Part shown: positions 1-18,844 of the stretch, in pieces
Layout of the letters: each line of letters begins with the position of its first letter
Position numbering within the stretch: position 1 is the stretch's first letter
Assembly (NCBI GenBank): GCA_001781125.1
Contig: MFKT01000009.1
Location: 126,840-190,839, forward strand
Source: Candidatus Kaiserbacteria bacterium RIFCSPHIGHO2_01_FULL_53_29
GTDB lineage: Bacteria; Patescibacteriota; Minisyncoccia; Phycocordibacterales; UBA2100
Length of the DNA: 64,000 bases
Direction: 5' to 3'
Program-made: the position numbers and the translations under genes
Notes under the pieces: model-generated
Databases searched by the model: none
Told to the model about the DNA's origin: nothing
What the model saw: the letters and a program-made list of their open reading frames with translations, nothing else

Positions 1-877
1 CAAACAAGTGCCACGCGGAATTGTCGAGCTCAGCGCGCGGCGGAAGCTTGATGCCGGGCACGTCCGCGAGAAGCCTGAAGTAGCGCTTCGCCGCAGCTCG
101 ACGCTTCGCGATGAACCCGTCGAGCTTCTTCATCTGACTCACCCCGAGCGCCGCCTGAATGTCCGTAATCCGGTAATTATTACCAAGTACCTGCATTTCC
201 TGGTGCCATGCTGCTTTTGTTCTGTCTTTCAGTTTTTTTGCATCCCTTGTGAGACCGTGCGTGCGGAACATCCGCAGAAACTCATAGTAATTTTTATTAT
301 TGGTTACGATGGCACCGCCCTCGCCAGTCGTAATGGATTTTACCGGATGGAAGCTGAACATCGTCATGTCAGCCTGTGAGCCCACCGGCTTGCCGCGATA
401 TGTCGCGCCGAGGCTTTGTGCACCGTCCTCGATGAGAACAAGTCGGTGTCTTTTTGCGAGTGCACGGAACCCCGCGAGGTCGGTCGGTCGTCCCGCGTAA
501 TCGACGGGTACGATGGCTTTCGTGCGCTTGGTTATCTTTTTTTCTGCATCCCGCACATCCATATTCGCGGAGACTTCATCGATATCTGCGAACACGGGTC
601 GAGCATTGAGATACAGCGCGGCATTCCCCGTCGCGACAAAGGTCAGTGCCGGCATAATGACCTCATCTCCTTTCCCGATCCCCGCAGCGGCGTATGCCGC
701 ATGGAGCGCAGCGGTGCCTGACGAAAAGGCGATGCAGTAGTGAGCGCGTGTATAGTTCGCGAGCGAGTCCTCGAACTTCTTGACCGCCGGCCCCTGCGTC
801 AAGAACGCGGAGTGCAGCACCTTGGAGACGGCCCGCACGTCATCCTCGCCGATAGACTGGCGAGAATATGGTATCAT
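1..877 (-). CDS. DegT/DnrJ/EryC1-family PLP-dependent sugar aminotransferase (PseC/LegC-like); 3' end truncated by window edge
   Basis: Reverse-complement translation from ATG at 877: MIPYSRQSIGEDDVRAVSKVLHS... is a typical DegT/ArnB/PseC N-terminus. The ORF stays open to position 1. Its ATG overlaps the stop of the upstream dehydratase gene by 4 bp (ATGA). Confidence 0.8.
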   Translation of the reverse strand, partial: MIPYSRQSIGEDDVRAVSKVLHSAFLTQGPAVKKFEDSLANYTRAHYCIAFSSGTAALHAAYAAAGIGKGDEVIMPALTFVATGNAALYLNARPVFADIDEVSANMDVRDAEKKITKRTKAIVPVDYAGRPTDLAGFRALAKRHRLVLIEDGAQSLGATYRGKPVGSQADMTMFSFHPVKSITTGEGGAIVTNNKNYYEFLRMFRTHGLTRDAKKLKDRTKAAWHQEMQVLGNNYRITDIQAALGVSQMKKLDGFIAKRRAAAKRYFRLLADVPGIKLPPRAELDNSAWHLF

Positions 878-1857
878 ATCTTCAGTATCTTTTTCACGTG
901 CGTGCGCGAGAGGAGGAATTGCGGTGCGTTACTCACATATATGACGTTCTCCGGGAACGTCTTTGCTTTGGAGTAGTACGGTTTTGCGGTCCATGGGTGG
1001 AATTCCGGCACAACAACGAACATATCGCCGAGATCTTTGGTGCGGGGCGCTTCGTGCTCCGTAATGAGCACTTCGTGTAATTTCTCGCCCGGCCGCATGC
1101 CGATGGTCTTGATAGTGCACGTGGGTGCAAGCTCGCGCATGACGTCTTCCACCCGGAGGCTCGACATCTTCGGAACAAAAATCTCGCCGCCCTCCATAGA
1201 GCCGAGGATCTTGGTGACTAATTTCATGATGTCTTCAATGTGGAGCCAAAAGCGAGTCATGCGTCCGTCCGTGAGTGTGAGCGTTCCCGTCTGTTTTTGC
1301 TTTTCTATGAGCTCAACGAGCGAACCGCGGCTGCCGATGACATTACCGTAGCGCACCACACTGATGCGCGTCTTCCCGGTCCGACCGCGGTAGGAATTGG
1401 CGGCGATCGCGAGACGTTCCGCACACATCTTGGTCGCACCGTAGAGGTTGATGGGCTGCACGGCTTTGTCAGAGGAGATGACAAGAACGCGTTCAACGTT
1501 CCGATCGTGCGCGGCATCTATCACGTTCTTTGTGCCCATGATATTCGTCTCGATTGCCTCGGAGGGATTGTATTCGAGTGCCGGTACTTGCTTGAGTGCC
1601 GCCGCATGAATAACGACATCTACCTGATTAAAGGCGCGTATGAGGCGCGTACGGTCGCGTATATCACCGATAAAAAAGTCCACTCTTTTGTCCTTGAATT
1701 CGTGCGCCATTTCGCTTTGTTTATATTCGTCGCGGCTGAAAACGATGACCCGCTTTACTTTGGGCATTGAAAGGAGGTGCCGCACCATAGCGCGTCCGAA
1801 CGTCCCCGTACCGCCCGTAATGAGGACGATTTTGCCATTCAAGTAGGGAGCCGACAT
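874..1857 (-). CDS. UDP-N-acetylglucosamine 4,6-dehydratase (PseB/FlaA1/CapD family, short-chain dehydrogenase fold)
   Basis: ORF 874..1938. The likely start is the internal M at 1857 (MSAPYLNGKIVLITGGTGTFG, a Rossmann GxxGxxG motif); YGATK supplies the catalytic YxxxK. The length and motifs match PseB/PglF-type inverting dehydratases. Confidence 0.8.
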   Translation of the reverse strand: MSAPYLNGKIVLITGGTGTFGRAMVRHLLSMPKVKRVIVFSRDEYKQSEMAHEFKDKRVDFFIGDIRDRTRLIRAFNQVDVVIHAAALKQVPALEYNPSEAIETNIMGTKNVIDAAHDRNVERVLVISSDKAVQPINLYGATKMCAERLAIAANSYRGRTGKTRISVVRYGNVIGSRGSLVELIEKQKQTGTLTLTDGRMTRFWLHIEDIMKLVTKILGSMEGGEIFVPKMSSLRVEDVMRELAPTCTIKTIGMRPGEKLHEVLITEHEAPRTKDLGDMFVVVPEFHPWTAKPYYSKAKTFPENVIYVSNAPQFLLSRTHVKKILKI

Positions 1858-1938
1858 GCGAGCCACTCTATCGCTTTGAAGCGCGTGGGTCAACACTCCG
1901 CAAGTCTCGAAACGATCGTTCCGGGACGGACAATACAT

Positions 1939-3105
1939 TTATGATCGTGCCGTGAGCTGTGTTTCGATGGAATAATCTTGATACTTCTTGATCAGATTAC
2001 CGTCACTGTCCCGAAGCAAGTTCCCACGCTCATCCGTCATAAAGATCGCTTTATCGGTAAATGAGTCCATAACACTGTCAAATTCTGTCCGCGACATCCC
2101 AGAGTACGCCAGAAAATCGGTGATAGAAATCTTCGGCAACTTACCATCATATTTTTCCACAAGCGCAACTCCCTCCTCCCTGGTGATGCGCCCATTGCGG
2201 ATATCCAGGCAAACATGATCGGTCGCTCTTCCAAACCCGAACTTCACAAATTTAAGATAGTCATGAACACCCACTGTCGCTTCGTCAAGATTCTCATAAT
2301 TGGTATACGTGCCCTCAACGGCTCCATCCTCTTTTACTGAAAATCCATACTGTTGCATGAGTTCAACCTGCGGACGAGCATCCCATTTGAAATAGTAACC
2401 AAGAAAAACGCCTGTTATGCCCGCCGCGAGCAGTTCCTCATCAGTCGGATATTTATATCCTATTAAATCCTGCTGGGTGATGCCCCCAACTCCGACCATG
2501 TCATCAACGCGTAATCCGAGAAGGCCGCCAAACTCTTCAAGCCAGCGGCGATCGAGCGTGTTTTTCATGCGAGCGGCTTTTGGCCCGCCGTACTCAAGTT
2601 GAGAATTTTCCCCCCATAGTATAAGGGGAATTTTGTATGCAACCGCCACACGTATCGGAAAGGTAAAGATACCTATGTGGTTAGGCCATTCGTTGTCGCC
2701 AACGCGACGAAACCCTTCGAGCACCATCTTTTTATAAACGTCCGGATTCTTCTTTAGTTCGAGCACGTTGCCAAACCGGCGGATATTCTCCAAATTCTTG
2801 CGTCCGAGCTCCGTGCGCATAGTCGGCTCAAAGTGCACCAAAAGCGGATTAAGTCCATATTGCCGGGCCATATACACCTGGTAGTGACTGTCCTTGCCTC
2901 CGCTTACGGGAATGATGCAGTCGTATTTCAAACCGTCCTTGTTGTTAAATCTCTCAACCAGTTTTTTAAACTCCTCCTCCCGAGCTTTCCAGTCGATGGC
3001 ATTTTTGAGACCCGCGGAGTGGCACGCATCGCACACACCATCTTTGTCAAAAGCAAGATCGGGCTTCGTGTTCGGCATTACGCAGCGCGTGCAATAGCGG
3101 AACAT
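1939..3105 (-). CDS. N-acetyl sugar amidotransferase (WbpG/PseA/WbuX family, PP-loop ATP pyrophosphatase)
   Basis: 388 aa with the PP-loop SGGKDS motif (IIPVSGGKDSHYQ). The family normally works with adjacent HisH/HisF paralogs to make acetamidino sugars, and both paralogs are directly downstream here. Confidence 0.8.
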   Translation of the reverse strand: MFRYCTRCVMPNTKPDLAFDKDGVCDACHSAGLKNAIDWKAREEEFKKLVERFNNKDGLKYDCIIPVSGGKDSHYQVYMARQYGLNPLLVHFEPTMRTELGRKNLENIRRFGNVLELKKNPDVYKKMVLEGFRRVGDNEWPNHIGIFTFPIRVAVAYKIPLILWGENSQLEYGGPKAARMKNTLDRRWLEEFGGLLGLRVDDMVGVGGITQQDLIGYKYPTDEELLAAGITGVFLGYYFKWDARPQVELMQQYGFSVKEDGAVEGTYTNYENLDEATVGVHDYLKFVKFGFGRATDHVCLDIRNGRITREEGVALVEKYDGKLPKISITDFLAYSGMSRTEFDSVMDSFTDKAIFMTDERGNLLRDSDGNLIKKYQDYSIETQLTARS

Positions 3106-3108
3106 ACG

Positions 3109-3801
3109 TTATGCAGTCTTTTCCAATAAATACATCTGGCTCACATTCACCCCAGCGGTCATTGCGTACTTCTTCTCTTTTATTACGCGTAGTCCGGGGA
3201 ACGAGTCCAGAAACATTTTGCAAAAGTCCGCCTTCCATAAGAGGTTTTTGTTTCCGCGGTATACCACCTCGGTGTGCGCGGGCGCATAATATTCAAACCC
3301 CCAGATATAACGGCGCGATACGCGATGCATCTCCCTCATGATGTCTTGTATATCAGCCGGCGAAATATGGATAAGCACACCGGAGGTGAATACAAGGTCA
3401 TATGACGCATCGTCAAACGGCAGAGCGAATCCGGATCCCTGCAAGACCCTCACTTCGGGGTGGATCTTCTTCGCCTGTGCAACGGCATGTTCATTGATAT
3501 CAATGCCGGTAAGGTCCGGGAAACCCATGCGTCTCAAAAGCTCAAGCTCGAGACCGATATTCGCTCCCACCTCAAGAACGTTCATCTTTTTCTCCACCCC
3601 GCCCAAAAATTCATCATTCATCGAAGTGCGGGTTACGCCATAATCTTTGAGATATACGCGATCGAACTCTTCGACTGACTGCGGATTGCGATCGGTGTAG
3701 AGCTTTCCCATTTCCCCCGCCCATTCAGAGAGTTGTGTCGTCTCTTTACCGTTTGTCATCCACCGAATACTACCCGATTCTAGCCGGAATTCCAGCATCA
3801 C
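3109..3801 (-). CDS. Class I SAM-dependent methyltransferase (pseudaminic-acid-biosynthesis-associated methylase type)
   Basis: 230 aa. [15 protein letters not shown] is a SAM-binding motif I, followed by [12 protein letters not shown] (motif II/III). The start may be the internal M at about 3759, which would remove the 32-bp overlap with the next gene. Confidence 0.65.
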
Positions 3802-4519
3802 TCAGCGCCTTTTTTATGATCTGTGGAGTTATCTGCGTATACTGGAAAATGCTGGCAGCAGAAACTGCAGATGCGCCTGCTTGTACTGCCCGAACACAAT
3901 CATCCGGAGTCCCCGCTCCACCAAGAGCTACCACCGGGATCCGGACGGCGCGGGTAACGTACGTGATCAACTCCGTATCATATCCCTCCATCATTCCGTC
4001 ACGGTCGATTGCATTCAAAAGAATCTCCCCCGCGCCACGTTTTTCCGCCTCTTGTGCCCATTCTCTTACTTCCTTCCCTGTTTCTTTGCGCCCCCCCTCG
4101 GAGAATATGTGGTATCGTGCATCTATCTTCCTGACATCGATCGAGACGACCATGCACTGACTCCCGTATCGTTTTGCAGCCGCATCAATAAGGCCGGGCT
4201 CTTCCAGTGCGGCGCTGTTGATGGCAACCTTATCCGCCCCAAGAGAAAGTAGTCGTTGAACATCTGCAATCGTCTTTACGCCCCCGCCGAGGGTCACGGG
4301 CATGAAGCACTCCTTGGTAACTTCCGCCACCAGCCGGCCTTCTATACCGTGCTCGCGCGCGTCAAGATCGAGAAAAATCAGTTCGTCAACATCGCGAGCG
4401 TTAAAGACCCTGACAGCGGCGATGTAGTTGCCGATGTTACGGTAATCTTGGAATTTTATACTTTTCACGAGTCGCTGATCTTTGACCGTAAGGCATGGAA
4501 TGACGCGTGTTTTAAGCAT
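3770..4519 (-). CDS. HisF-like imidazole-glycerol-phosphate-synthase cyclase subunit paralog (WbuZ type)
   Basis: 249 aa. [15 protein letters not shown]...LIFLDLDA...VSIDVR...[15 protein letters not shown] are HisF (beta/alpha)8-barrel signatures. It sits in a glycan cluster rather than a his operon. Confidence 0.85.
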
Positions 4520-4529
4520 ACGGAGTGCT

Positions 4530-5135
4530 TCACATGTTGATGAAATTCCTCAGAAGTTGTTGCCCGCTCTTTTGACTTTTCTCGGGATGAAATTGTACTC
4601 CGAAAATATTGTCCCTTTGCACGGCTGCGGCAAATTGCGCACCGTACTCGCATGTACCGATTATGTGCCTCATGTCCGTCGGCTCCACTACATAGGAATG
4701 CACGAAGTAGAAGTCGCGTCCATCGATATTCGCAAACAGAGGATGATCTCCGAATGTCACGTCATTCCACCCGATGTGTGGCAGGCGGTACATGGATTCA
4801 TCAACACGCAATCTACGCGTTGTCCCCGCAACCCAGCCGAGTCCTGCGGCACCTGTTCCCTCTTCTCCCCTGTCCGTGAGAAGCTGCATGCCCAGACAAA
4901 TCCCCAAAAATGGTTTCTTTGTTTTTTGTACTTCATGAGTAAGTGCCTTGATTACTCCACTTTTGCGCAGACCGTCCATGCCATCTTCAAAAGCACCCAC
5001 CCCGGGGAAAATAATATGCGTTGCGTGTGCAAAATCTTCTGGATTTTTGGTCAGGACACTTGAGGCACCCAAGAGCGCGAGCGTGTTCGCAACAGAGCGT
5101 ACATTGCCCACTCCGTAGTCGACAATTGCGATCAT
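4530..5135 (-). CDS. HisH-like class I glutamine amidotransferase paralog (WbuY type)
   Basis: 201 aa. IAIVDYGVGN opens the protein, GICLGMQLL carries the catalytic Cys, and FGVQFHPE carries the His/Glu. Confidence 0.85.
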   Translation of the reverse strand: MIAIVDYGVGNVRSVANTLALLGASSVLTKNPEDFAHATHIIFPGVGAFEDGMDGLRKSGVIKALTHEVQKTKKPFLGICLGMQLLTDRGEEGTGAAGLGWVAGTTRRLRVDESMYRLPHIGWNDVTFGDHPLFANIDGRDFYFVHSYVVEPTDMRHIIGTCEYGAQFAAAVQRDNIFGVQFHPEKSQKSGQQLLRNFINM

Positions 5136-5923
5136 ACGTTGATTCTCTTTTGATGATCCGCATCACGGAAGGCGTTTATCGCAACGACCTTGGGATGTTC
5201 GTCGAGGTAGCGCAACACTTTCGGCACGTTCACAATCGTGCCCTCAGCATAAAACTTATTATACAAGTGTTCGAGTAGTTCATAATCTTCGGCATAATCA
5301 AGTGTGAGACGGTACGGCCGGCGATACTCTGAGGGCGCTTCGATTATTGGCCCTATCGAAAATAGATTCCCTTCATTTTTCCAAATAAACGGCGTTACGT
5401 GTTCGCGCTGGTACTGTTCCCATGCCTCTTTGCACGAACGTTCAAGAGCAGCGGTGGTAAATACCTCAACATCCAGGCCGCGCGGAAATGTGCGTCCTCC
5501 CGTTGTGCAGTTAGTTATATAATCGTATGAGCCTTCTTTAAACTTCTCGATACAGAGTTCGGTTATCTTCGGGTCAATAAGCGGGCAGTCACTCGTTATG
5601 CGCACAATGGTGTCCACGCCGTACATGCGTGCCGCGCCAAGATAGCGCGAGAGAACGTCATCGGGTGAACCGCGAAATACTGCTATCTCACTCGCCCTGC
5701 ATACGTTCTCAACGACATCGTCGCTCACATCAGTTGATGTGGCCACTATTATTTTTTCGATTGCCGTTGCCATTCTCACGCGCTCGACGATGTGCCGGAG
5801 TACCGGTTTACCCGAAAGATCAAGAAGTACTTTCCCCGGCAACCGGGTCGAGCTCATTCGCGCTTGTATGATCGCCGCAATCATACCTGCCACTATAGCT
5901 TGTAAGAAAGCCCGAGGGAACAC
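5132..5923 (-). CDS. Acylneuraminate/pseudaminate cytidylyltransferase family (CMP-nonulosonic acid synthetase, PseF/NeuA-like)
   Basis: AIIQARMSSTRLPGKVL is the canonical CMP-sugar synthetase N-terminus. The probable start is an internal Met near 5884. Confidence 0.75.
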   Translation of the reverse strand: MFPRAFLQAIVAGMIAAIIQARMSSTRLPGKVLLDLSGKPVLRHIVERVRMATAIEKIIVATSTDVSDDVVENVCRASEIAVFRGSPDDVLSRYLGAARMYGVDTIVRITSDCPLIDPKITELCIEKFKEGSYDYITNCTTGGRTFPRGLDVEVFTTAALERSCKEAWEQYQREHVTPFIWKNEGNLFSIGPIIEAPSEYRRPYRLTLDYAEDYELLEHLYNKFYAEGTIVNVPKVLRYLDEHPKVVAINAFRDADHQKRINV

Positions 5924-5968
5924 CTATTCTATCGGGCGCCCCCTCTTCAGCCTCTCGACATGGCGCGA

Positions 5969-7420
5969 CTACGGCACATGATGCTTGATTTGAACATTGG
6001 GATTGTGCAACTCCTTCAAAATGAATTGGGCGATGGTTGTAGCGCTTTCCTCAGGTGTAACAGCGTTCTTCGGATCACGTGATTGGAATATATTTGAGCG
6101 TATGGATACCTGCTCGAACGCTTTTAGAAAAGCTGCCATGTTGCTTTCGTGCCGAGCAGGTGCCTGTACATTTGTTAGAGCGCGGGTACATTCATCAACG
6201 CTTCGAACACCATGGACCCCGGGACAATCCCGGTACCAGCACCATCCGAACACCAACGGCAGCTTATCCCGAAGAAGCGCTTCCCAGCCGGCCGTACCGG
6301 TGATGACCGCCACCGTCTTGCAGTGTTCGATGAGTTCATACGAGTTCGTCCCGATCGGAACGACGCGAACTCCGGAGATTCGCGCAAGTTGTTCGTAGTA
6401 TCCCCTCCAACGCACGCAATTATATTGCGACTTATTGCGAAGGAGCCATTGCGATGGGTGTTCCTTAACGTATATTTCCCATCCCCTCGGAAGCGCCGCC
6501 GAGAGCGTCTCAACGGCTAACAATTGATCATGGAACACGCCGCCCTGAGGGCTAGAAGTTCGTTCAGGCTGGAATTGCAGAGGAAAATACACGTAGGCCC
6601 TGGAAAAATCGGCCGCTTTCGTGACTCGCCCATATTCACTTGTAAGGTTACCTTTGGATTGACGCGCGAGGTATGTGAAAACGAGGCGGAACGTTGAACC
6701 GTTCGATACGGAACGTAGTAAAGCGCGAACACGGATTTTCCACAACGTTCGACCGCTTACGCGATCCTCCAGTTCCCTTTGAAACCATGGCTTCGATATA
6801 TTTCTCTTTGAGCCCCGGTTCTCTTCCCAATAATCACGCATCTCCTTACTCAGATCTCCGGGCATGACGCCACGGGAGAGGTTGTATGCAAGGGCTGCCT
6901 GCAGCGCACCGTTACTCTTCCTGAAATCGCGGTATGAAATAAGACGACCGTCGAAGACGGTCTCTTCGAACATCAGAGTCGGAATTTTATTTTCCTGCGC
7001 AAGTTCAAATAAAATATAATTGTACAGGCTATGCGGAACTATCGGAAAAAGAATCGCCTCAGGCTGTACTGTTTTTAAAACATGTCTCCAATATGCCAGC
7101 ATTGTGTAGTAGGTATGTTTCCGCTGATCTACTGCCGCGGGGTCAAAATGTTTGTTCATCATCGTAAGGATCATGGACTCGAGACGAAAGCTCTCCTCTA
7201 TTTCTTTTGCGGACAGCGGCGGGATATTCACATCTGCCAGTGCCGGAGCGGGTTTTCCGTCCCATGCGTCGTAGTGGTCGTGGTAGATCGAGCCCGTCGG
7301 ATTACAGTGCTCGGTTCTGTCGCCAACAAAGTATACGATCTTGAGACCGCCCTTTTCGAGCCCTTCGATAAGCGGGACCATCTCTTGCTCCGGGCGCGGC
7401 CATATGAGCATCGTCCTCAT
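5969..7420 (-). CDS. Capsule_synth (KpsS/KpsC-like) family protein; putative CMP-2-keto-3-deoxy-sugar (nonulosonate) transferase
   Basis: 483 aa. The C-terminal VAVITGTAGWEALLRDKLPLVFGWCWY resembles the conserved ...VITxNSTxGxEALLxGKPVxxxG motif of KpsS/KpsC beta-Kdo transferases. The gene lies inside the CMP-nonulosonate locus. The family call is tentative. Confidence 0.4.
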   Translation of the reverse strand: MRTMLIWPRPEQEMVPLIEGLEKGGLKIVYFVGDRTEHCNPTGSIYHDHYDAWDGKPAPALADVNIPPLSAKEIEESFRLESMILTMMNKHFDPAAVDQRKHTYYTMLAYWRHVLKTVQPEAILFPIVPHSLYNYILFELAQENKIPTLMFEETVFDGRLISYRDFRKSNGALQAALAYNLSRGVMPGDLSKEMRDYWEENRGSKRNISKPWFQRELEDRVSGRTLWKIRVRALLRSVSNGSTFRLVFTYLARQSKGNLTSEYGRVTKAADFSRAYVYFPLQFQPERTSSPQGGVFHDQLLAVETLSAALPRGWEIYVKEHPSQWLLRNKSQYNCVRWRGYYEQLARISGVRVVPIGTNSYELIEHCKTVAVITGTAGWEALLRDKLPLVFGWCWYRDCPGVHGVRSVDECTRALTNVQAPARHESNMAAFLKAFEQVSIRSNIFQSRDPKNAVTPEESATTIAQFILKELHNPNVQIKHHVP

Positions 7421-7421
7421 A

Positions 7422-8411
7422 TTAGGCGTAGTCGATAGCTTCCAAGAGCTGTTTCAAAAGTCTGGAATTGCTTTCTATGGTATTGAGCGGTTTCGCTTCA
7501 CCTTTCAAACACTTGAAGAAGTGGAATGAGTCGTCCACGTACATCTGCTCGGCCCAGGTCGTTGTGATATCGTTCTCGAAATCAACTTTCTCGCCCGACT
7601 CATCAAATTCCGTCCATTTTCCCGACCGCCGATCGTAATATTTCACGATCGCGGCTTTGTAATCCCACACGATGACACCATTCTCACTGATCAGTTTGGT
7701 CGCTCTGCCGTAAGGAGTCTGGAGCATGTCGGTATGGAGCACGATTTGCGGACCCGATTTGAATTCGAGAATGAAATCAATGATGTCGTACGTGTTTATC
7801 TCAAGACTCGATTTTTTCCCATACACACAATTCATTTTTTGGATGTCGCCAAAGATATCGACCAACCAATCAAGGTCGCATATGGCATCGAGGCCGCCGC
7901 CCATTTCCTTTTTGGACGGATAATAATCGATATAGGGCTCATAGGGGTGCCAATCGGGCAAATATTCGCCCACCTCGGCTATCCCCGAGAGGATCGGTCC
8001 AATCGCATTCTCTCGGACAAGCTCTTTTATCCTTTGAGTGGCCTTCAGGAACCTGACGTTGCAACTCACATTTGCGACTAAGTTTTTCTTCCCCACTTCT
8101 TTCTGCAGGGCGTCTAGACCTTTCGTGCTGTGCCAAACGGGATTTTCCACCATGAAATTCCAGCCCTTATTCACGGCGAGCTTCATATAATAATAATGCT
8201 CGGCCGGCGGTACACAGATGAAAAGGGCGTCGAACGACGAACCCTCAAAGGCTTCCTGGCTCGGGGCCGTTCGTATGCCAAACCTCCCCCCGACGTCTTT
8301 CCTTCGATCTGCCCTGATATCCCAGCCGGTAATATCGGTGTACCCGTACATCTGCGAATGAGCGATGCGACGCCGGCCCATCGAACCGTTTCCCACAACG
8401 CCAATTTTCAT
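7422..8411 (-). CDS. Gfo/Idh/MocA-family NAD(P)-dependent oxidoreductase
   Basis: MKIGVVGNGSMGRR is an N-terminal Rossmann motif; the protein is 329 aa with the typical GFO_IDH_MocA layout. Confidence 0.75.
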   Translation of the reverse strand: MKIGVVGNGSMGRRRIAHSQMYGYTDITGWDIRADRRKDVGGRFGIRTAPSQEAFEGSSFDALFICVPPAEHYYYMKLAVNKGWNFMVENPVWHSTKGLDALQKEVGKKNLVANVSCNVRFLKATQRIKELVRENAIGPILSGIAEVGEYLPDWHPYEPYIDYYPSKKEMGGGLDAICDLDWLVDIFGDIQKMNCVYGKKSSLEINTYDIIDFILEFKSGPQIVLHTDMLQTPYGRATKLISENGVIVWDYKAAIVKYYDRRSGKWTEFDESGEKVDFENDITTTWAEQMYVDDSFHFFKCLKGEAKPLNTIESNSRLLKQLLEAIDYA

Positions 8412-9232
8412 ACTGAAGGTTTCGTTAGTCCTAATTCCCGATACGCACCCACGACATCGTTGAATCGGAATGGATGGTCTTTCTTCTGCAACTGCAAATG
8501 CTCAATGATCTTTCGATTCCGATCAAGGTCGTCCGGGGTATCTATCGAAAGATAGACATCCGAGAAGTCCACGCCTTTCGATTCGATCGCGATGGCGGGA
8601 AACTTTTCTTCATGCTCGCGGATATACGGCGTCACGTGCTCTCTTTGGGATTCCGTGGTTGCATTGCGATAAGCATCTTGGAGAGACGCGAAATCAAAAA
8701 GCTCGAAATAAAGGCCGTAGGGAAAACCCGGCTTGAAGCTGTTGGACATCAATTTATAGTACGGATATGTGGAATCAAAAAAAGTGACCATGGCGTCGAC
8801 GATGTACGGGTCCATAAAGATATCGTCGGCGGTAATCCGTATGATGATATCGGAATCAACGGCGCCTAATGACCGCGCCGCTTCGTAAAACCGCTCAAGT
8901 ACGTTCTGTTCGCTGCCGCGGAAACATTTGACCGGATACTCCCGAGCGAACTCAAAAAGTACGTCATCGCTCTCATCTGTAGTAGTCGCCACAATAGTAT
9001 CGGTGATCTCCTTGGAGTGCCGAATATTTTCAAGAAGATGCCAGAGAGTCGGCTTTCCGGAGATCTCCATAAGAGTTTTCCCCGGCAATCTTGTGGAACC
9101 CATTCTGGCCTGAATGATCGCGATCTTCTTTTTCACCTCATGAGCATACACCATAAGAAAATCGCGGACTATCGTTGCCGATTCACTGCGATATCGTATA
9201 CACCTTATAGAAATATGAGCCGGTATTGGCAA
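8408..9232 (-). CDS. Second cytidylyltransferase (acylneuraminate cytidylyltransferase / SpsF-like)
   Basis: KIAIIQARMGSTRLPGKTL motif. The likely start is the internal MVYAHEVKKK at about 9154. It is a paralog of the CDS at 5132..5923. Confidence 0.7.
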   Translation of the reverse strand: MPIPAHISIRCIRYRSESATIVRDFLMVYAHEVKKKIAIIQARMGSTRLPGKTLMEISGKPTLWHLLENIRHSKEITDTIVATTTDESDDVLFEFAREYPVKCFRGSEQNVLERFYEAARSLGAVDSDIIIRITADDIFMDPYIVDAMVTFFDSTYPYYKLMSNSFKPGFPYGLYFELFDFASLQDAYRNATTESQREHVTPYIREHEEKFPAIAIESKGVDFSDVYLSIDTPDDLDRNRKIIEHLQLQKKDHPFRFNDVVGAYRELGLTKPSV

Positions 9233-11000
9233 GCAGTTCTTTGGGACTGCCTGTTTCCATCACCCTGCCCTCGGAAAGCACAATGAGCGTGTCGGAGTCC
9301 ATTATCGTAGAGAGTCGGTGTGCGATTGCAATGATGGTAATGTTCCCCTTTAATTCTTCGATGACGCGTTTTATATGCGCCTCGGACTCATTATCGAGCG
9401 AGCTCGTGGCCTCATCGAGAATGAGGAGCTCCGGCTTGCGTGCGAGCGTGCGGGCGATAACGATGCGTTGTCGTTCTCCCGCAGAGATCATTATGCCACG
9501 GTCACCAACTTGCGTATCGAGCCCCTGCGGACTCTTCCGGATGAATTCATCGATGCGAGCCGATCGCGCTGCTTCCCATATGTCCTCATCAGAAATAGAT
9601 TCGTCGTAGAAACGGATATTATTTCGTATTGTATCCTGAATGAGAAAAAGATCCTGCGAAACATAGCCCACCTTCCTGCGCCACTCTGAAAGTACGACAC
9701 CCCGCGTATCGATGCCATCGAGTAGTATGGCGCCCAGAGATGGTTCCAGGAGCCGGAGCATCAGATCGACGCATGTCGTCTTCCCCGCGCCCGATGGTCC
9801 GACTATTCCCACCATACTGCCCTTCGGGATAGAGAATGACACATCGCGTAATACCAGTCTTTCGGCTTGGTAGGAAAAAGAAACGTTATCGAATGAAAGA
9901 GTCTCTCTGAAGGAGAAGGGCAGTGACCCCGACGTCTCTTCCTTCCACTCCTGCGCGCTGTTCTCAAGATTAATGACGCGTTCAAGGTGTGGAACGAGCT
10001 CGCTTATGTATTGAACATTCATCTGCAGCTGCTGGATATAGGTGAAGATGCGGTGGATGAGGTACAAAATGGCGGGAAGCGCTGCAAGACTAATGAACGG
10101 CGTCTTGAAGGCGAGAGCGAGAATTGCGGCAATATACATGATACCGATCGGAGCCATTGCCTGCGCGGAGATCTGTTGCAACATCTGTATGCGTGTAGAG
10201 AGTCTTTTTATATTGCTGAATAGTCCAAATCCGCGCTCTATCGCAGAGATCTCCACACCAAGGGCTTTCACGGTCTTAAGTCCGCCGACATGTTCCGTCA
10301 CGTGATGTGCGGTGTCACGAAAAAGGGAGGCACGCTCGCGCGAGAATGCGTGTACGCGATTCGTGAAAGGACGTAGGCTGATAAATACAATGGCCCCAAG
10401 GCCGAACGTCGTCAGTGTAATTGGTGCGGAGATTGAAAATGCCACAACGAGATACATCACAAGACTGGTAGCAACCGTTATGGAAAAGCTTATCTTTGAC
10501 AGAAGAGCAGTTGCCGCAGGAGTGTCTATCATGAGCGCGGTCTCGAGATTACCCAGTTTTTGCCGAAGGAGGTACGGCCATGAGGCGCGGAGAACTTTTT
10601 TGAATAATGTGGAGCGGGTCGAGCGCTCGTACTCTGTCGTGATGCCGATCTGTATGTAACTTAAGCCTAATGAGACGAGTGCCTTCCCTATGAAGAGTAC
10701 GACGATGAACGTGAGCAGGAACTTGGGCACGAAGGGTACGTGTATCCACGTGAAGAATCCTTGGATCGCGAGTGAGAGCATATCCGTAGCGGGATTGTGA
10801 AGACCGAGCACGAATGTGAGAAGCGGGATGACGGCATTGATGCCAATGCCTTCCAGAATGCCACCCACGAATCCGAGCACTGTGAGGATGAGTATTTGGC
10901 GTTTGTAGGGGCCATATGCACGCCGACCGAGGTGCACGATCGCTCCCAGAAGTCTGAATATGTTGGCAGTATTCGATTCTTCCATAAACGCCATAAACAT
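9183..11000 (-). CDS. ABC transporter, fused permease/ATPase (MsbA/PglK/Wzk-like lipid-linked glycan exporter)
   Basis: A six-helix transmembrane domain is followed by Walker A (GPSGAGKTT), the ABC signature (LSAGERQRIVIARTL) and Walker B (LILDEATSSLD). The probable start is MFMAFMEE at about 11000. Confidence 0.85.
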   Translation of the reverse strand: MFMAFMEESNTANIFRLLGAIVHLGRRAYGPYKRQILILTVLGFVGGILEGIGINAVIPLLTFVLGLHNPATDMLSLAIQGFFTWIHVPFVPKFLLTFIVVLFIGKALVSLGLSYIQIGITTEYERSTRSTLFKKVLRASWPYLLRQKLGNLETALMIDTPAATALLSKISFSITVATSLVMYLVVAFSISAPITLTTFGLGAIVFISLRPFTNRVHAFSRERASLFRDTAHHVTEHVGGLKTVKALGVEISAIERGFGLFSNIKRLSTRIQMLQQISAQAMAPIGIMYIAAILALAFKTPFISLAALPAILYLIHRIFTYIQQLQMNVQYISELVPHLERVINLENSAQEWKEETSGSLPFSFRETLSFDNVSFSYQAERLVLRDVSFSIPKGSMVGIVGPSGAGKTTCVDLMLRLLEPSLGAILLDGIDTRGVVLSEWRRKVGYVSQDLFLIQDTIRNNIRFYDESISDEDIWEAARSARIDEFIRKSPQGLDTQVGDRGIMISAGERQRIVIARTLARKPELLILDEATSSLDNESEAHIKRVIEELKGNITIIAIAHRLSTIMDSDTLIVLSEGRVMETGSPKELLANTGSYFYKVYTISQ

Positions 11001-14529: not shown

Positions 14530-14575
14530 ACGTTCCCAAAAACAATACTATTTCCGCAACCGATTTCCTAGGCCA

Positions 14576-15382
14576 TCAATTCTTACTCTTCAAAAGAAAC
14601 CCGCTTATGAGAGGGGTCTCAACTTCAGTCGTTTGGTATAGAGAGCCCCACAGGGGGGGGAACGTTTTCTTGGTTCTCAAATATCCCGCAAATACAAAGT
14701 GTTCTCCTTTGAGTCGTCGGATGAGTCGGTCAACGAACCGTGAGAGTAGTCCCCGCGCCGTTAGGCGGTTACAGACTATCAGGATATTCCTGATACCTGA
14801 ATCGTGCATGTTCTGGAACATTTCCCGCAGCTCGTTATTCGTGAACTCAATGTCCACATGATTCATGAGGACAAGTTGTTTGTCTGCAGACACTCCCTGG
14901 AGGGCAGGCGACCAATCTTTGTTTTTCATATCGAAAAGGCGTATGGAATCGCACTCAGTAAATACTTTTTTGAGAGTATCGACAGAATTTGGGGAGAAAT
15001 CCGAGCACGTCATCTGTAGATCAGGATTGGCTTTTTTGATCTGGTACTCAAGTCCTGCGCCACCGACACCGACGGAAAAAAGTGACGATATGCCACACTC
15101 ATTGAGAATACGGGATATTTCTTCCGCGCGCAGAGGCATTGCACCATCCTGTCCGTCTTTTTTTATTTTCGATTCAGCTGCTTTGAGCCATTCCTCTCTG
15201 CTTTCAGCAATGGAAAAGTGCGGATGATTCATCCGCAGGGCATCCCACGACTCCGCAGAGTAAAGCTCGCCGTCCTTCAAAAAAGCCGTTGCAGCACCAA
15301 AGACAGAATAGTGACGAATGGTGAGGGGAAATGGCAGAGAATTTATATAGTGCAGTATTTTCTTTGCCGGCATATATCCCAT
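14576..15382 (-). CDS. Putative methyltransferase-like protein
   Basis: 268 aa with a SAM-motif-I-like VGVGGAGLEYQI; the similarity is weak. Confidence 0.45.
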   Translation of the reverse strand: MGYMPAKKILHYINSLPFPLTIRHYSVFGAATAFLKDGELYSAESWDALRMNHPHFSIAESREEWLKAAESKIKKDGQDGAMPLRAEEISRILNECGISSLFSVGVGGAGLEYQIKKANPDLQMTCSDFSPNSVDTLKKVFTECDSIRLFDMKNKDWSPALQGVSADKQLVLMNHVDIEFTNNELREMFQNMHDSGIRNILIVCNRLTARGLLSRFVDRLIRRLKGEHFVFAGYLRTKKTFPPLWGSLYQTTEVETPLISGFLLKSKN

Positions 15383-16218: not shown

Positions 16219-16294
16219 ATACTAGCCCGAATCTTTCTATTTTGAAAACGAACCGCGGGAAATTGGCCGTTTACCCCTAGCCGCAGCGAGAAGG

Positions 16295-18831: not shown

Positions 18832-18844
18832 AGATCAAAGAGTA

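What the first reader, a model, noticed from the sequence alone, without database searches (positions are those of the whole stretch)
1..7420. Nonulosonic-acid locus equipped for acetamidino (and probably methyl) modification, plus a KpsS/KpsC-like putative transferase
PseB-like dehydratase, PseC-like aminotransferase and a CMP-sugar synthetase define a CMP-nonulosonate (pseudaminic/legionaminic-type) pathway. The remaining steps (N-acetyltransferase, UDP-hydrolase and NulO synthase, if Pse-type) are presumably upstream of the window. The WbpG/PseA-family amidotransferase with dedicated HisH- and HisF-like partners is the known route to 7-acetamidino derivatives. A Pse-associated methylase sits between them. 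The 483-aa Capsule_synth-like protein resembles beta-Kdo transferases. Kdo and nonulosonates are both CMP-activated 2-keto-3-deoxy sugars, so this is a candidate nonulosonyl-transferase. That role is not established for the family.
Basis: partly seen in the sequence, partly recalled or inferred. Interest (0 to 1): 0.6.

Follow-up and report, generated by a model that had tools for sequence, protein, structure and literature searches.

The report
CPR bacterium pseudaminic-acid surface-glycan operon
A tiny groundwater bacterium (Candidatus Kaiserbacteria) carries a long operon predicted to make a pseudaminic-acid-type "bacterial sialic acid" with an acetamidino group and attach it to an exported surface glycan; every part resembles known enzymes, so it is a familiar kind of locus in an unusual organism, with a few atypical details.

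Summary
They are a truncated PseC, PseB, a WbuX-type amidotransferase, a Pse-associated methylase, a HisF-like WbuZ, HisH, a CTP_transf_3 cytidylyltransferase and a 483-aa PF05159 protein. An identical metagenome contig shows the missing steps just past the left edge: full PseC, a GNAT and PseI.

The source is Candidatus Kaiserbacteria (CPR/Patescibacteria). The finding is the promoter-distal part of a glycan island of about 47 kb.

The 483-aa protein is a GT-B enzyme. Its best global structural match is KpsC, it has an invariant K-E-H-P motif, and an invariant Glu286 sits where KpsC has its Asp nucleophile. In all 8 CPR loci examined it lies beside or near a fused ABC exporter. PseB-like and DegT genes are nearby in 7 of 8.

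The claim that nonulosonate transfer "is not established for the family" is outdated. A. baumannii KpsS1 (GT118) was shown to be a pseudaminyltransferase in 2024.

Three things are atypical. No PseG is recognisable in any CPR locus. A conserved GFO–CTP–class-III aminotransferase–DUF218 block accompanies PseI. A paralogous 525-aa transferase follows PseI.

Verdict: new variant of a known kind, moderate interest.

The parts
1..877 (-). pseC, 5' 292 codons of 376 (UDP-4-amino-4,6-dideoxy-N-acetyl-beta-L-altrosamine transaminase); the gene runs off the left edge
   Evidence: Minus frame 3 translation. The full-length copy on the identical contig L001 scores TIGR03588 463.6 against a cutoff of 423.5.
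874..1938 (-). pseB (inverting UDP-GlcNAc 4,6-dehydratase)
   Evidence: TIGR03589 407.8 against 407.75; FnlA 232 against 730; LegB 74 against 475. PF02719 310.8 bits.
1939..3105 (-). WbuX/PseA/PtmG-family N-acetyl-sugar amidotransferase (PP-loop ATP pyrophosphatase type)
   Evidence: TIGR03573 378.2 against 203.2. PP-loop S68-GGKDS and an N-terminal CxxC...CxxC. Its stop abuts the pseB start.
3109..3798 (-). SAM-dependent 'pseudaminic acid biosynthesis-associated methylase'
   Evidence: TIGR03587 183.5 against 112.05. Methyltransf_11/25. Gene start as called on L001.
3770..4519 (-). WbuZ / HisF-like barrel, the inferred ammonia-delivery partner of the amidotransferase
   Evidence: TIGR03572 299.8 against 299.7; AglZ_HisF2 261 bits; true hisF below cutoff at 244.7 against 294.55. 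Thr11 replaces the catalytic Asp11 of HisF (plus my own knowledge of the T. maritima HisF sequence).
4530..5135 (-). HisH-type class-I glutaminase (WbuY role)
   Evidence: TIGR01855 235.8 against 105.4. GIC80LG and H183-P-E185 are intact.
5132..5884 (-). CTP1: SpsF-like CTP_transf_3 cytidylyltransferase, the likelier CMP-Pse synthetase
   Evidence: PF02348 126 bits. PseF model only 25.9 bits. PDB 6OEW 'cytidylyltransferase' at 1.3e-46. It is the best match to the CTP of the recurrent GFO-CTP-Aminotran_3-DUF218-NeuB block and to the sole CTP of the complete Pseudogemmobacter pse operon.
5969..7420 (-). 483-aa GT-B, KpsS/KpsC-like (PF05159) putative CMP-nonulosonate transferase; motifs F-Q284-P-E286, K319-E-H-P322, G-T-A-G-W-E380
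   Evidence: PF05159 36.3 bits over residues 290-411. AF2 model pLDDT 90.6. Best TM-scores to KpsC and WbbB. Profile hits KpsC at 1.8e-8. Motifs invariant in 47/47 sequences. Neighbourhood conserved.
7422..8411 (-). GFO/IDH/MocA NAD(P)-dependent sugar dehydrogenase, paired with CTP2
   Evidence: PF01408 and PF22725. Best NCBIfam hit is UDP-GlcNAc 3-dehydrogenase, 63 bits against 450. 84% identical to the L023 counterpart in the same gene order.
8408..9154 (-). CTP2: second SpsF-like cytidylyltransferase, 41% identical to CTP1
   Evidence: PF02348 115 bits. Paralogy shown. 76% identical to the L023 copy that also sits between the ABC exporter and GFO.
9183..11000 (-). Fused TMD-NBD ABC exporter (HepA/MsbA/PglK-like), the conserved neighbour of the 483-aa transferase
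   Evidence: ABC_membrane and ABC_tran. HepA family 348.7 bits against 725, so below the equivalog cutoff. Present beside or near the 483-type gene in 8/8 CPR loci.
11000..16789 (-). Upstream genes of the same co-directional train: GT4 (11000-12109), double-GT4 807 aa (12106-14529), unknown 268 aa (14576-15382), methyltransferase 278 aa (15382-16218), unknown 152 aa (16331-16789)
   Evidence: Overlapping or abutting stops and starts. No excess of terminator-like or promoter-like sites over shuffles.
16816..27250 (.). Further glycan genes: DegT aminotransferase (+, 16816-17910), SDR dehydratase-like (17893-18831), GT4s (18845-19903, 21894-22991, 23067-24074, 25170-26381), NDP-sugar dehydrogenase::GT4 fusion (19909-21885), SDR epimerases (24114-25118, 26378-27250)

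Best explanation
Window 1-7420 is the promoter-distal part of a long minus-strand operon. The co-directional train runs from about 16.8 kb to at least 10 kb past the left edge. It lies inside a glycan island of about 47 kb or more in a Candidatus Kaiserbacteria (CPR) genome.

Proposed pathway, with the status of each step:
1. [quoted passage not shown] Family assignment is shown here.
2. A divergent GNAT N-acylates it. Inferred.
3. An unidentified enzyme removes UDP. No PseG is recognisable. DUF218, which sits beside PseI in three CPR loci, is a candidate. Speculative.
4. PseI condenses the hexose with PEP to give the nine-carbon acid. Family assignment is shown here.
5. An SpsF-type cytidylyltransferase, probably CTP1, makes the CMP-sugar. 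Inferred from orthology and from the complete Pseudogemmobacter operon.
6. The PP-loop amidotransferase WbuX converts one N-acetyl group to an acetamidino group. It would use ammonia produced by HisH and delivered through the HisF-like WbuZ. Motifs are shown here; the substrate is inferred from operon position.
7. The nested methylase probably N-methylates the acetimidoyl group, as PtmG and PtmH do for legionaminic acid. Inferred.
8. The 483-aa GT-B enzyme transfers the nonulosonate from CMP onto a glycan built on a lipid carrier by the upstream GT4 enzymes. The likely mechanism is KpsC/WbbB-like double displacement with Glu286 as nucleophile. Inferred.
9. The adjacent fused ABC exporter moves the product across the single membrane. 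Inferred from invariant adjacency.

CTP2-GFO, together with the aldo-keto reductase and the class-III aminotransferase, probably modify the sugar further.
For: - Equivalog-level hits for PseB, PseC and PseI, and subfamily or equivalog hits for WbuX, WbuZ, HisH and the methylase.
- Intact PP-loop, intact glutaminase triad, and loss of the HisF cyclase Asp11.
- Tight operon packing, with 4-nt overlaps or gaps of 10 nt or less from hisH to pseC, and no internal terminator excess.
- The 483-aa model is confident (pLDDT 90.6) and is GT-B. Its best global fits are KpsC (TMt 0.42-0.50) and WbbB.
- Sequence profile hits in the PDB, apart from one chance-level match (E 0.33), are only KpsC (1.8e-8) and WbbB (0.04).
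- K-E-H-P, Q-P-E and G-T-x-G-W-E are invariant in 47/47 family members.
- Ungapped extension of the hhalign block puts KpsC Asp160 on Glu286 (KpsC mechanism from PMC10148158).
- Neighbourhood: the ABC exporter is beside or near the gene in 8/8 CPR loci, PseB-like and DegT genes in 7/8, and NeuB is visible in 5/8.
- The nearest non-CPR relative sits next to a complete pseB-pseC-pseG/H-pseI operon whose only cytidylyltransferase is the same SpsF type.
- Precedents: KpsS1/GT118 (PMC12887879), Gtr59/KpsS1 adjacency (PMC4487303), PtmG/PtmH (PMC3766260), SpsF (PMC7439481).
Against: - No PseG anywhere in about 47 kb, nor in the other CPR loci tested, even at E<=10.
- The GNAT is far below the PseH cutoff, and both cytidylyltransferases are far below the PseF cutoff.
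- PseB only just reaches its cutoff.
- The QXXXD nucleophile motif of GT107/GT99 is not conserved (Glu for Asp; Gln at -4 is variable), and the aligner itself did not extend to that region.
- Foldseek E-values rank UDP-GlcNAc 2-epimerases above KpsC.
- One CPR locus (L029) pairs the ABC exporter and the 483-type gene with TagF/TagD-like genes and has no visible NulO genes.
- WbuX-family enzymes also amidinate non-NulO sugars such as FucNAm and ManNAc3NAmA (my own knowledge).
- No initiating phosphoglycosyltransferase, ligase or oligosaccharyltransferase was seen, so the acceptor and final destination are unknown.
- There are no biochemical data for any CPR protein here.
Confidence: 0.6

Rival explanations
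1. The product is not plain Pse5Ac7Am. CTP2-GFO, the aldo-keto reductase and the class-III aminotransferase would convert the (CMP-)pseudaminic acid into an epimer (as EpaA/EpaB make 8-epi-Pse) or into a derivative with an extra amino group, before or after amidination.
For: - EpaA is a CTP_transf_3::AKR fusion that, with an SDR, epimerises Pse at C8 (PMC12053666).
- This locus has a spare CTP_transf_3, a GFO dehydrogenase and an AKR.
- A CTP_transf_3::Aminotran_3 fusion occurs in the Pseudogemmobacter pse operon.
- The aminotransferase is 52% identical across phyla, and GFO-CTP-Aminotran_3-DUF218-NeuB recurs in CPR loci.
Against: - There is no sequence similarity to EpaB-type SDRs in the window.
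- The chemistry of the GSA-aminomutase-like enzyme is unknown.
- In loci with a single CTP, the CTP-GFO pair may simply be the CMP-synthetase plus an unrelated step.
- The literature search found no tri-amino nonulosonate.
Confidence: 0.35
2. The amidotransferase/HisH/HisF/methylase set modifies a different amino sugar of the same glycan (a FucNAm-, QuiNAm- or ManNAc3NAmA-type residue), not the nonulosonate.
For: - TIGR03573 is named for WbuX, and WbuZ for the E. coli O145 FucNAm system.
- AglZ/HisF2 (261 bits) is an archaeal acetamidino system for a hexuronate.
- The island encodes another DegT, several SDRs, an NDP-sugar dehydrogenase and a GFO dehydrogenase whose best hit is UDP-GlcNAc 3-dehydrogenase.
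Against: - The four genes are wedged between the cytidylyltransferase and pseB with overlapping or abutting reading frames.
- The methylase belongs to the Pse-associated family TIGR03587.
- Two other CPR NulO loci (L025, L031) also place HisH/HisF next to the 483-type gene and the PseB/DegT genes.
- PtmG/PtmH give a direct NulO precedent (PMC3766260).
Confidence: 0.15
3. The 483-aa protein, or more plausibly its 525-aa paralogue next to pseI, is not a transferase to a glycan. It would be the missing nucleotide-sugar hydrolase (a PseG/NeuC functional substitute), or a primer/terminator enzyme using a non-NulO donor.
For: - No PseG is present in any CPR locus.
- Both models get their best Foldseek E-values from UDP-GlcNAc 2-epimerases, including hydrolysing NeuC.
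- The 525-aa gene directly follows pseI.
- L029 shows the ABC exporter and the 483-type gene without visible NulO genes but with TagF/TagD-like genes.
Against: - The epimerase superpositions are poor (TM about 0.3, rmsd about 18 A), whereas KpsC gives TMt 0.50-0.56.
- Sequence-level homology is to KpsC, WbbB and PF05159 only.
- L025 has both Epimerase_2 and a 483-type gene.
- Pseudogemmobacter has a bona fide PseG plus a 483-family relative.
- The CMP-type K-E-H-P motif is invariant.
Confidence: 0.12
4. A Kps-like model. The two paralogues would act like KpsS and KpsC, priming a membrane lipid with a nonulosonate and extending a short NulO linker on which the GT4 enzymes build a polymer. The ABC transporter would then export it, giving a group-2-capsule-like pathway in a monoderm.
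For: - There are two full-length-homologous PF05159 paralogues per locus, recalling KpsS and KpsC.
- The ABC exporter is invariantly adjacent.
- No Wzx/Wzy or initiating phosphoglycosyltransferase was seen in about 47 kb.
Against: - Each paralogue has a single GT module.
- The exporter is a fused MsbA/PglK-type half-transporter, not KpsMT.
- No lipid-acceptor evidence exists.
- Capping of a finished chain, as WbbB does, fits the same data equally well.
Confidence: 0.15

Closest known systems
Acinetobacter baumannii KpsS1 (GT118) and Gtr59/KpsS2: PF05159 transferases encoded next to Pse, Leg or Aci modules
   Same: - PF05159 membership and a GT-B fold related to KpsS, KpsC and WbbB.
- The gene sits beside a nonulosonate biosynthesis module.
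- The predicted donor is a CMP-5,7-diamino-nonulosonate (PMC4487303; PMC12887879 citing Walklett 2024).
   Different: - Direct similarity could not be measured because the KpsS1 sequence and paper are not available here.
- The CPR protein matches Pfam only over its C-terminal 120 residues and has no NCBIfam hit.
- It is coupled to a fused ABC exporter, not to a Wzx/Wzy capsule locus.
- The host is a monoderm CPR bacterium.
E. coli KpsC/KpsS (GT107) and Raoultella WbbB (GT99): retaining beta-Kdo transferases of ABC-transporter-dependent pathways
   Same: - Best global structural matches and, apart from one chance-level match, the only PDB sequence hits.
- The K-x-H-P and S/T-x-x-G-x-E-A-L-L motifs align.
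- An acidic residue sits at the nucleophile position.
- Partnership with an ABC exporter.
   Different: - Glu286 replaces the QXXXD aspartate, and Gln at -4 is not conserved.
- The N-terminal domain is not alignable by sequence.
- The donor is predicted to be a nine-carbon diamino acid, not Kdo.
- No Kdo pathway is present.
Tannerella forsythia Tanf_01245 / BFO_1060 family (Pse5Am7Gra and Leg-derivative transferases)
   Same: - Genetically proven transferases of an amidinated Pse derivative.
- Encoded just downstream of the CMP-Pse locus.
- Carry an HP motif (PMC5420450).
- The 525-aa paralogue weakly matches NF046086 around its HP region (26.5 bits).
   Different: - Scores are far below the family cutoff of 200, and the 483-aa protein does not hit the model at all.
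- The Tannerella enzymes feed a Bacteroidota general protein O-glycosylation system.
Campylobacter PtmG (Cj1324) / PtmH (Cj1325) and PseA; E. coli O145 WbuX/WbuY/WbuZ
   Same: - A PP-loop amidotransferase converts N-acetyl to acetamidino.
- A methyltransferase N-methylates the acetimidoyl group at the CMP-sugar level (PMC3766260).
- WbuX comes with dedicated HisH- and HisF-like partners (NCBIfam TIGR03573 and TIGR03572).
   Different: - Here the methylase is nested between wbuZ and wbuX.
- The backbone is Pse-type, not Leg.
- The position of amidination is unknown.
- The Campylobacter enzymes are not accompanied by their own HisH/HisF (my own knowledge).
A. baumannii prophage EpaA/EpaB (Pse to 8-epi-Pse)
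   Same: An extra CTP_transf_3 enzyme works with oxidoreductases (an AKR and a dehydrogenase) alongside a standard Pse pathway (PMC12053666).
   Different: - The components here are separate proteins.
- The dehydrogenase is GFO/IDH/MocA, not an SDR.
- A class-III aminotransferase is also part of the conserved set.
- The function is untested.
Bacillus subtilis SpsF (CMP-legionaminic acid step of the sps pathway)
   Same: A CTP_transf_3 cytidylyltransferase, distinct from the PseF/NeuA equivalogs, serves a nonulosonate pathway in a monoderm (PMC7439481).
   Different: That pathway is Leg-type and has an SpsG hydrolase/epimerase. Here the backbone is Pse-type and no hydrolase was identified.

Membership tests
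Pseudaminic acid pathway (PseB-C-H-G-I-F) | PseB equivalog (TIGR03589) at or above cutoff | tested here: met
   407.8 against 407.75, which is borderline. FnlA and LegB are far below their cutoffs.
Pseudaminic acid pathway (PseB-C-H-G-I-F) | PseC equivalog (TIGR03588) | tested here: met
   The full-length gene on the identical contig L001 scores 463.6 against 423.5. LegC scores 245 against 420. The window holds codons 1-292.
Pseudaminic acid pathway (PseB-C-H-G-I-F) | PseH N-acetyltransferase equivalog (TIGR03585) | tested here: not met
   A 157-aa GNAT is in the right position but scores 31.1 against 93.1. The PseH domain of the complete Pseudogemmobacter operon is also sub-threshold at 46.3.
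Pseudaminic acid pathway (PseB-C-H-G-I-F) | PseG UDP-sugar hydrolase (TIGR03590) | tested here: not met
   No hit at E<=10 among the unassigned locus proteins, nor in the unassigned proteins of four other CPR loci. As a positive control, the Pseudogemmobacter PseG scores 319.6 against 153.55. The rest of the genome could not be searched.
Pseudaminic acid pathway (PseB-C-H-G-I-F) | PseI synthase equivalog (TIGR03586) | tested here: met
   L001 17478-18524 scores 476.2 against 340.25. NeuB/NnaB scores 318 against 400. The gene lies about 5.5 kb outside the window.
Pseudaminic acid pathway (PseB-C-H-G-I-F) | PseF CMP-Pse synthetase equivalog (TIGR03584) | tested here: not met
   25.9 and 23.9 bits against 205.7. 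Both proteins are SpsF-like CTP_transf_3. The same type is the only cytidylyltransferase in a complete pse operon.
WbuX/WbuY/WbuZ (PseA/PtmG/WbpG-type) acetamidino system | TIGR03573 amidotransferase with a PP-loop | tested here: met
   378.2 against 203.2. SGGKDS at residues 68-73.
WbuX/WbuY/WbuZ (PseA/PtmG/WbpG-type) acetamidino system | Dedicated glutaminase with a Cys-His-Glu triad, plus a HisF-like partner classifying as WbuZ rather than HisF | tested here: met
   HisH 235.8 bits with C80, H183 and E185. WbuZ scores 299.8 against 299.7, while hisF scores 244.7 against 294.55. Asp11 is replaced by Thr.
WbuX/WbuY/WbuZ (PseA/PtmG/WbpG-type) acetamidino system | Substrate is the nonulosonate, and the position (N5 or N7) of the amidino group | not testable with these tools
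   Only operon adjacency and precedents are available (PMC3766260).
TIGR03587 Pse-associated methylase | Score above cutoff, and location in a Pse cluster | tested here: met
   183.5 against 112.05. The methyl acceptor is not testable.
Retaining ulosonic-acid GT-B transferases (GT107 KpsS/KpsC, GT99 WbbB, GT118 KpsS1) | PF05159 / sequence homology to KpsC | tested here: met
   PF05159 36.3 against 20, C-terminal domain only. Profile against KpsC 1.8e-8 and against WbbB 0.04.
Retaining ulosonic-acid GT-B transferases (GT107 KpsS/KpsC, GT99 WbbB, GT118 KpsS1) | GT-B fold closest to KpsC/WbbB | tested here: inconclusive
Retaining ulosonic-acid GT-B transferases (GT107 KpsS/KpsC, GT99 WbbB, GT118 KpsS1) | HP motif in the C-terminal domain | tested here: met
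   K319-E-H321-P322 is invariant in 47/47 sequences and aligns to KpsC K-V-H-P. The paralogue has K374-E-H-P377.
Retaining ulosonic-acid GT-B transferases (GT107 KpsS/KpsC, GT99 WbbB, GT118 KpsS1) | Invariant QXXXD motif with the Asp nucleophile | tested here: not met
   The position equivalent to KpsC Asp160 (offset 126 from the hhalign block) is an invariant Glu286. Gln at -4 is not conserved, while Q284-P285 are invariant. The paralogue has E-P-E341.
Retaining ulosonic-acid GT-B transferases (GT107 KpsS/KpsC, GT99 WbbB, GT118 KpsS1) | Direct similarity to KpsS1 / CAZy GT118 assignment | not tested
Retaining ulosonic-acid GT-B transferases (GT107 KpsS/KpsC, GT99 WbbB, GT118 KpsS1) | Gene adjacent to a nonulosonate biosynthesis module | tested here: met
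   In the window plus 7 other CPR loci, PseB-like and DegT genes are nearby in 7/8 and NeuB is visible in 5/8. The Pseudogemmobacter relative is beside a full pse operon.
Retaining ulosonic-acid GT-B transferases (GT107 KpsS/KpsC, GT99 WbbB, GT118 KpsS1) | Transfer of a CMP-activated 2-keto-3-deoxy acid with retention | not testable with these tools
   Needs an enzyme assay.
BFO_1060 family (T. forsythia Pse/Leg-derivative transferase, NF046086) | Score at or above 200 bits | tested here: not met
   The 483-aa protein has no hit. The 525-aa paralogue scores 26.5 bits over residues 368-439.

The most novel reading that the evidence does not exclude
Patescibacteria use a lineage-typical, PseG-less route to a further-modified pseudaminic-acid derivative. 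The route is PseB, PseC, GNAT, then the GFO-CTP-class-III aminotransferase-DUF218-PseI block, plus amidination and N-methylation here. A CPR-specific pair of KpsS/KpsC-like transferases uses a glutamate nucleophile in place of aspartate and is hard-wired to an MsbA/PglK-type ABC exporter. Together these would form a Kps- or WbbB-like, ABC-transporter-dependent pathway that coats a monoderm, host-dependent ultrasmall cell with nonulosonate-capped or nonulosonate-primed glycoconjugate. That coat could bear on episymbiotic attachment.
Probability: 0.22. Interest if true: 0.65.

Novelty: new variant of a known kind. Interest (0 to 1): 0.4.

Why it matters
- CPR/Patescibacteria have genomes of about 1 Mb and depend on host cells, so a glycan island of about 47 kb is a large investment in the cell surface, the structure that mediates attachment.
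- In the paper library searched, I found no paper that links these bacteria to nonulosonic acids.
- Characterised pseudaminyl and legionaminyl transferases are very scarce. Two large families here could supply new enzymes for glycoengineering and test whether Glu can replace Asp in the double-displacement mechanism. The 483-aa family profile alone recovers 2,825 cluster representatives at E<=1e-30, with invariant catalytic-looking residues.
- The consistent lack of PseG and the conserved cytidylyltransferase/aminotransferase/DUF218 block point to unexplored steps in nonulosonate biosynthesis.
- Even so, the overall logic (Pse module, amidotransferase, PF05159 transferase) is already known from Acinetobacter, Campylobacter, Legionella and Tannerella.

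Tried and rejected
- The 306-aa unassigned protein as PseG: rejected. It has no PDB or NCBIfam signal and is not homologous to unassigned neighbours in other CPR loci.
- DUF218 at first looked non-conserved. It later proved to sit beside PseI-type NeuB in L030 and L032. It has no PDB homologue or literature link, so it stays only a candidate.
- The KpsS1/GT118 paper and sequence are not held, so direct comparison was impossible.
I got round this through a homologue search.
- hhalign of the KpsC 148-263 segment did not extend to the QXXXD region. The Asp160/Glu286 equivalence rests on ungapped extension and on the predicted strand.
- Model coordinates are not exposed, so no residue-level superposition or distance check was possible.
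- Literature probes for CPR plus pseudaminic, legionaminic or NeuB terms, and for tri-amino nonulosonates, found nothing relevant.
- The promoter/terminator scan showed no excess over shuffles.
- Histidine biosynthesis as the role of hisH/hisF was considered and rejected. The HisF-like protein scores as WbuZ, falls below the HisF cutoff, lacks Asp11, and sits inside the sugar operon.

Full report
**Observation**

NCBIfam and Pfam classify them as follows.

| Gene | Window coordinates | Model | Score vs cutoff |
|---|---|---|---|
| PseB | 874-1938 | TIGR03589 | 407.8 vs 407.75 (exactly at cutoff) |
| WbuX-type amidotransferase | 1939-3105 | TIGR03573 | 378.2 vs 203.2 |
| Pse-associated methylase | 3109-3798 | TIGR03587 | 183.5 vs 112.05 |
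| WbuZ/HisF-like | 3770-4519 | TIGR03572 | 299.8 vs 299.7 (true HisF model below cutoff) |
| HisH | 4530-5135 | TIGR01855 | 235.8 vs 105.4 |
| Cytidylyltransferase CTP1 | 5132-5884 | CTP_transf_3 | 126 bits (PseF model only 25.9) |
| 483-aa protein | 5969-7420 | PF05159 Capsule_synth | 36.3 vs 20, residues 290-411 only; no NCBIfam hit |

The PseC-like gene is present but cut by the window edge (1-877, codons 1-292). Because the genes are on the minus strand, "upstream of the window" in the finding really means transcriptionally downstream, past coordinate 1.

**Source and missing steps**

The exact PseB protein occurs on 15 public contigs. One of them, L001 (ENA ERZ4903055, 124.6 kb), carries the same proteins in the same order and extends 10 kb beyond the left edge. 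The genes there, in order, are:
- full-length PseC (TIGR03588 463.6 vs 423.5)
- a class-III aminotransferase, GSA-aminomutase-like
- an unassigned 306-aa protein
- an EamA-like membrane protein on the other strand
- an aldo-keto reductase
- DUF218
- a 157-aa GNAT (PseH model only 31 bits)
- PseI (TIGR03586 476.2 vs 340.25)
- a second PF05159 protein of 525 aa
- a methyltransferase and a GT4

A further look-up adds a sugar C-methyltransferase, a second GFO oxidoreductase, an SDR, an NDP-sugar dehydrogenase, a mannose-1-P nucleotidyltransferase, GtrA and a sulfotransferase-like gene.

A NulO synthase is present, and the dehydratase/aminotransferase pair classifies as Pse-type. The 100%-identical hit P0001 names the organism as Candidatus Kaiserbacteria (RIFCSPHIGHO2_01_FULL_53…), a member of the CPR/Patescibacteria.

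**Extent of the locus**

Upstream of the 483-aa gene, still on the minus strand with overlapping or abutting reading frames, lie:
- a GFO/IDH/MocA dehydrogenase (7422-8411)
- a second CTP_transf_3, CTP2 (8408-9154, 41% identical to CTP1)
- a fused ABC exporter (9183-11000)
- GT4 glycosyltransferases and small genes, up to 16789

More glycan genes then run to about 27250. Promoter-like and terminator-like sites do not exceed shuffled expectation. The island is therefore at least about 47 kb, which is a large share of a CPR genome of roughly 1 Mb (genome size from my own knowledge).

**The amidotransferase set**

- WbuX has the PP-loop SGGKDS (residues 68-73) and an N-terminal CxxC…CxxC.
- HisH keeps Cys80, His183 and Glu185.
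- The HisF-like protein reads IPCLT11VKD, where T. maritima HisF has the catalytic Asp11 (HisF residues from my own knowledge).

Together with the WbuZ classification, this indicates a dedicated ammonia-delivery system and not histidine biosynthesis. PMC3766260, citing McNally 2007, reports that PtmG (Cj1324) converts CMP-Leg5Ac7Ac to CMP-Leg5Am7Ac and that PtmH (Cj1325) N-methylates the acetimidoyl group. The methylase here is nested between wbuZ and wbuX, so an N-methyl-acetimidoyl product is a reasonable inference. Neither the position (N5 or N7) nor the substrate can be read from sequence.

**The 483-aa protein**

The family has at least 428 close members (37-51% identity). All are unannotated, and nearly all the named ones come from Patescibacteria. 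An exhaustive profile search finds 10,038 cluster representatives at E<=1e-3 and 2,825 at E<=1e-30.

An AF2 model built on 47 sequences is confident (pLDDT 90.6, pTM 0.89). It shows two Rossmann-like domains with a helical insertion. Against the PDB every strong hit is GT-B. UDP-GlcNAc 2-epimerases and CalG1 have the best Foldseek E-values but poor superpositions (TM about 0.3). KpsC (TMt 0.42-0.50) and WbbB (0.36-0.39) fit best globally. Apart from one chance-level match (E 0.33), the family profile hits only KpsC (1.8e-8) and WbbB (0.04) in the PDB.

Invariant residues include F-Q284-P285-E286, K319-E-H321-P322 and G-T-A-G-W-E380. In the N-domain they include E81, K90, Y110-W111 and P129-H130.

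KpsC uses Asp160 of an invariant QXXXD motif as nucleophile, with His94 as acid and Glu66 as base (PMC10148158). hhalign pairs KpsC residue 176 with query residue 302. Ungapped extension of that block puts Asp160 on Glu286, Gln156 on the non-conserved Gln282, and the KpsC strand IVLVV on the predicted strand 276-280. The family therefore keeps an acidic residue at the nucleophile position but fails the QXXXD definition. I describe it as working like a GT107/GT99/GT118 enzyme and do not file it in any of those families.

**The paralogue**

The 525-aa protein after pseI is homologous over its full length (hhalign E 9e-43). It keeps E-P-E341, K-E-H-P377 and G-W-E426. Its family is also large and Patescibacteria-only. 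It models well (pLDDT 89.1) and again fits KpsC best (6mgd_B TMt 0.56). It weakly matches the NCBIfam BFO_1060 family (26.5 bits). That family contains the T. forsythia Pse5Am7Gra and Leg-derivative transferases, which were proven by knock-out and mass spectrometry (PMC5420450).

**Gene neighbourhood**

I examined the window plus seven taxonomically spread CPR loci (L023, L024, L025, L029-L032).

| Feature | Loci |
|---|---|
| ABC exporter directly before the 483-type gene | L024, L029, L030, L031, L032 |
| ABC exporter separated from it only by CTP2-GFO | window, L023 |
| ABC exporter about 8.5 kb upstream | L025 |
| PseB-like and DegT genes within 10 kb | 7 of 8 (not L029) |
| NeuB visible | 5 of 8 (window/L001, L023, L025, L030, L032) |

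L029 is the exception. It has TagF- and TagD-like genes and an Epimerase_2 at its edge. L025 and one module of L032 look Leg/Neu-type, so the family is not tied to Pse alone.

The nearest non-CPR relative is in Pseudogemmobacter (L011). It shares only the C-terminal domain (33% identity). It sits divergently beside a complete operon: PseB (540 bits), PseC (567), an AKR, a CTP_transf_3::class-III aminotransferase fusion, a PseG::PseH fusion (PseG 319.6), PseI (490) and a FemAB-family protein.

**Atypical points**

1. No PseG is detectable in the window locus or in the other CPR loci tested, even at E<=10.
2. A block GFO–CTP_transf_3–Aminotran_3–DUF218–NeuB (PseI-type, 62-72% identical to the window's PseI) recurs. 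DUF218 is a position-based candidate for the missing hydrolase but has no supporting precedent.
3. CTP1 matches the CTP of that block best. CTP2 and GFO form a separate pair, 76% and 84% identical to their counterparts in L023.
4. EpaA, a CTP_transf_3::AKR fusion, works with an SDR to epimerise Pse at C8 (PMC12053666). The final sugar here may likewise be an epimer or another derivative.

**Comparison with what is known**

Kenyon et al. 2015 (PMC4487303) had already linked PF05159 proteins (Gtr59, KpsS1, KpsS2) to adjacent nonulosonate modules. KpsS1 was later shown to be a retaining Pse5Ac7Ac transferase, founding GT118 (Walklett 2024, cited in PMC12887879).

What is new is the lineage, the divergent paralogous transferase pair with Glu at the nucleophile position, the fixed coupling to an MsbA/PglK-like ABC exporter, and the PseG-less pathway variant. 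In the held paper library I found no paper connecting CPR bacteria with nonulosonic acids. That is weak evidence of absence.

**Verdict**

This is a new variant of a known kind, with interest about 0.4. The acceptor, the exact sugar, the missing hydrolase and the mechanism remain inferences that need biochemistry.

Noticed in passing
window 46728-62771 (-): Giant 5347-aa ORF with 26% Ser+Thr. It has an N-terminal HTH_17-like segment, one TM-like stretch near residues 125-146, Kelch/LVIVD/beta-propeller repeats, repeated 'SPYLNITGTAATSTFA' units, a 'chaperone of endosialidase' (Peptidase_S74) domain near the C-terminus and a Pro/Ala/Glu-rich tail. It looks like a giant surface fibre. Any link to the glycan is speculation.
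   Followed up: partly
window 27265-28776 (-); also L024 1-671 and L031 1-410: A lamin-tail-domain (LTD) protein gene immediately precedes the glycan gene train in the window and in two other CPR loci. In the window the first ~197 codons of the ORF are Arg-rich and overlap a VirD4-like ORF, so the true start is probably Met198. After that come a signal-like segment, the LTD, a Pro/Thr/Lys-rich stalk and a C-terminal membrane anchor. It is a possible glycoprotein acceptor.
   Followed up: partly
L011 4181-6217 (-) (Pseudogemmobacter sp.): A single 678-aa protein fuses the SpsF-like CTP_transf_3 domain to a GSA-aminomutase-like class-III aminotransferase, inside a complete pseB-pseC-AKR-...-pseG/H-pseI operon. 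The same aminotransferase is 52% identical in the CPR loci. Its role in Pse chemistry is unknown.
   Followed up: partly
L001 16355-16972; L030 18090-18737; L032 17623-18234: A DUF218 gene sits directly beside the PseI-type NeuB in three CPR loci that lack PseG (30-46% identity among the copies). No solved homologue or literature link was found.
   Followed up: partly
L023 13442-15844: An 800-aa protein fuses amine-oxidase/GLF-like flavoenzyme domains to a NeuB synthase domain in the Parcubacteria locus. That locus also has a second, stand-alone PseI-type NeuB.
   Followed up: no
L032 (whole locus): One CPR locus carries two NeuB genes, two CTP_transf_3 genes, a PglD-like acetyltransferase, a radical-SAM/SPASM protein, a formyltransferase and both the 483-type and 525-type PF05159 genes. 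This suggests two different nonulosonates, each with its own transferase.
   Followed up: no
L024 11434-12498; L025 13546-14595; L011 443-1522: FemAB-family (TIGR04421-like) proteins recur next to nonulosonate genes, directly after the 483-type transferase in L024. They may add an aminoacyl group to the sugar.
   Followed up: no
window 19909-21885 (-): A 658-aa fusion of an NDP-sugar dehydrogenase (UDPG_MGDP_dh N-terminal and central domains) with a GT4 glycosyltransferase domain.
   Followed up: no
window 28112-29926 (-): A VirD4/TraG-like type IV coupling protein ORF overlaps the 5' part of the LTD ORF in another frame.
   Followed up: no
L029, L030, L032 (gene just before the ABC exporter): A small HTH_17 (excisionase/MerR-like) gene of 82-89 aa immediately precedes the ABC exporter and 483-type gene pair in three CPR loci. 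It may be a local regulator. No separate small HTH_17 gene was seen at that position in the window, although the giant ORF begins with an HTH_17-like segment.
   Followed up: no
window 37777-40299 (-) and 44487-45209 (-): An 840-aa Mur-ligase-domain protein with a long N-terminal extension, and an F420-0:gamma-glutamyl ligase-like (PF01996) gene, in a CPR genome.
   Followed up: no
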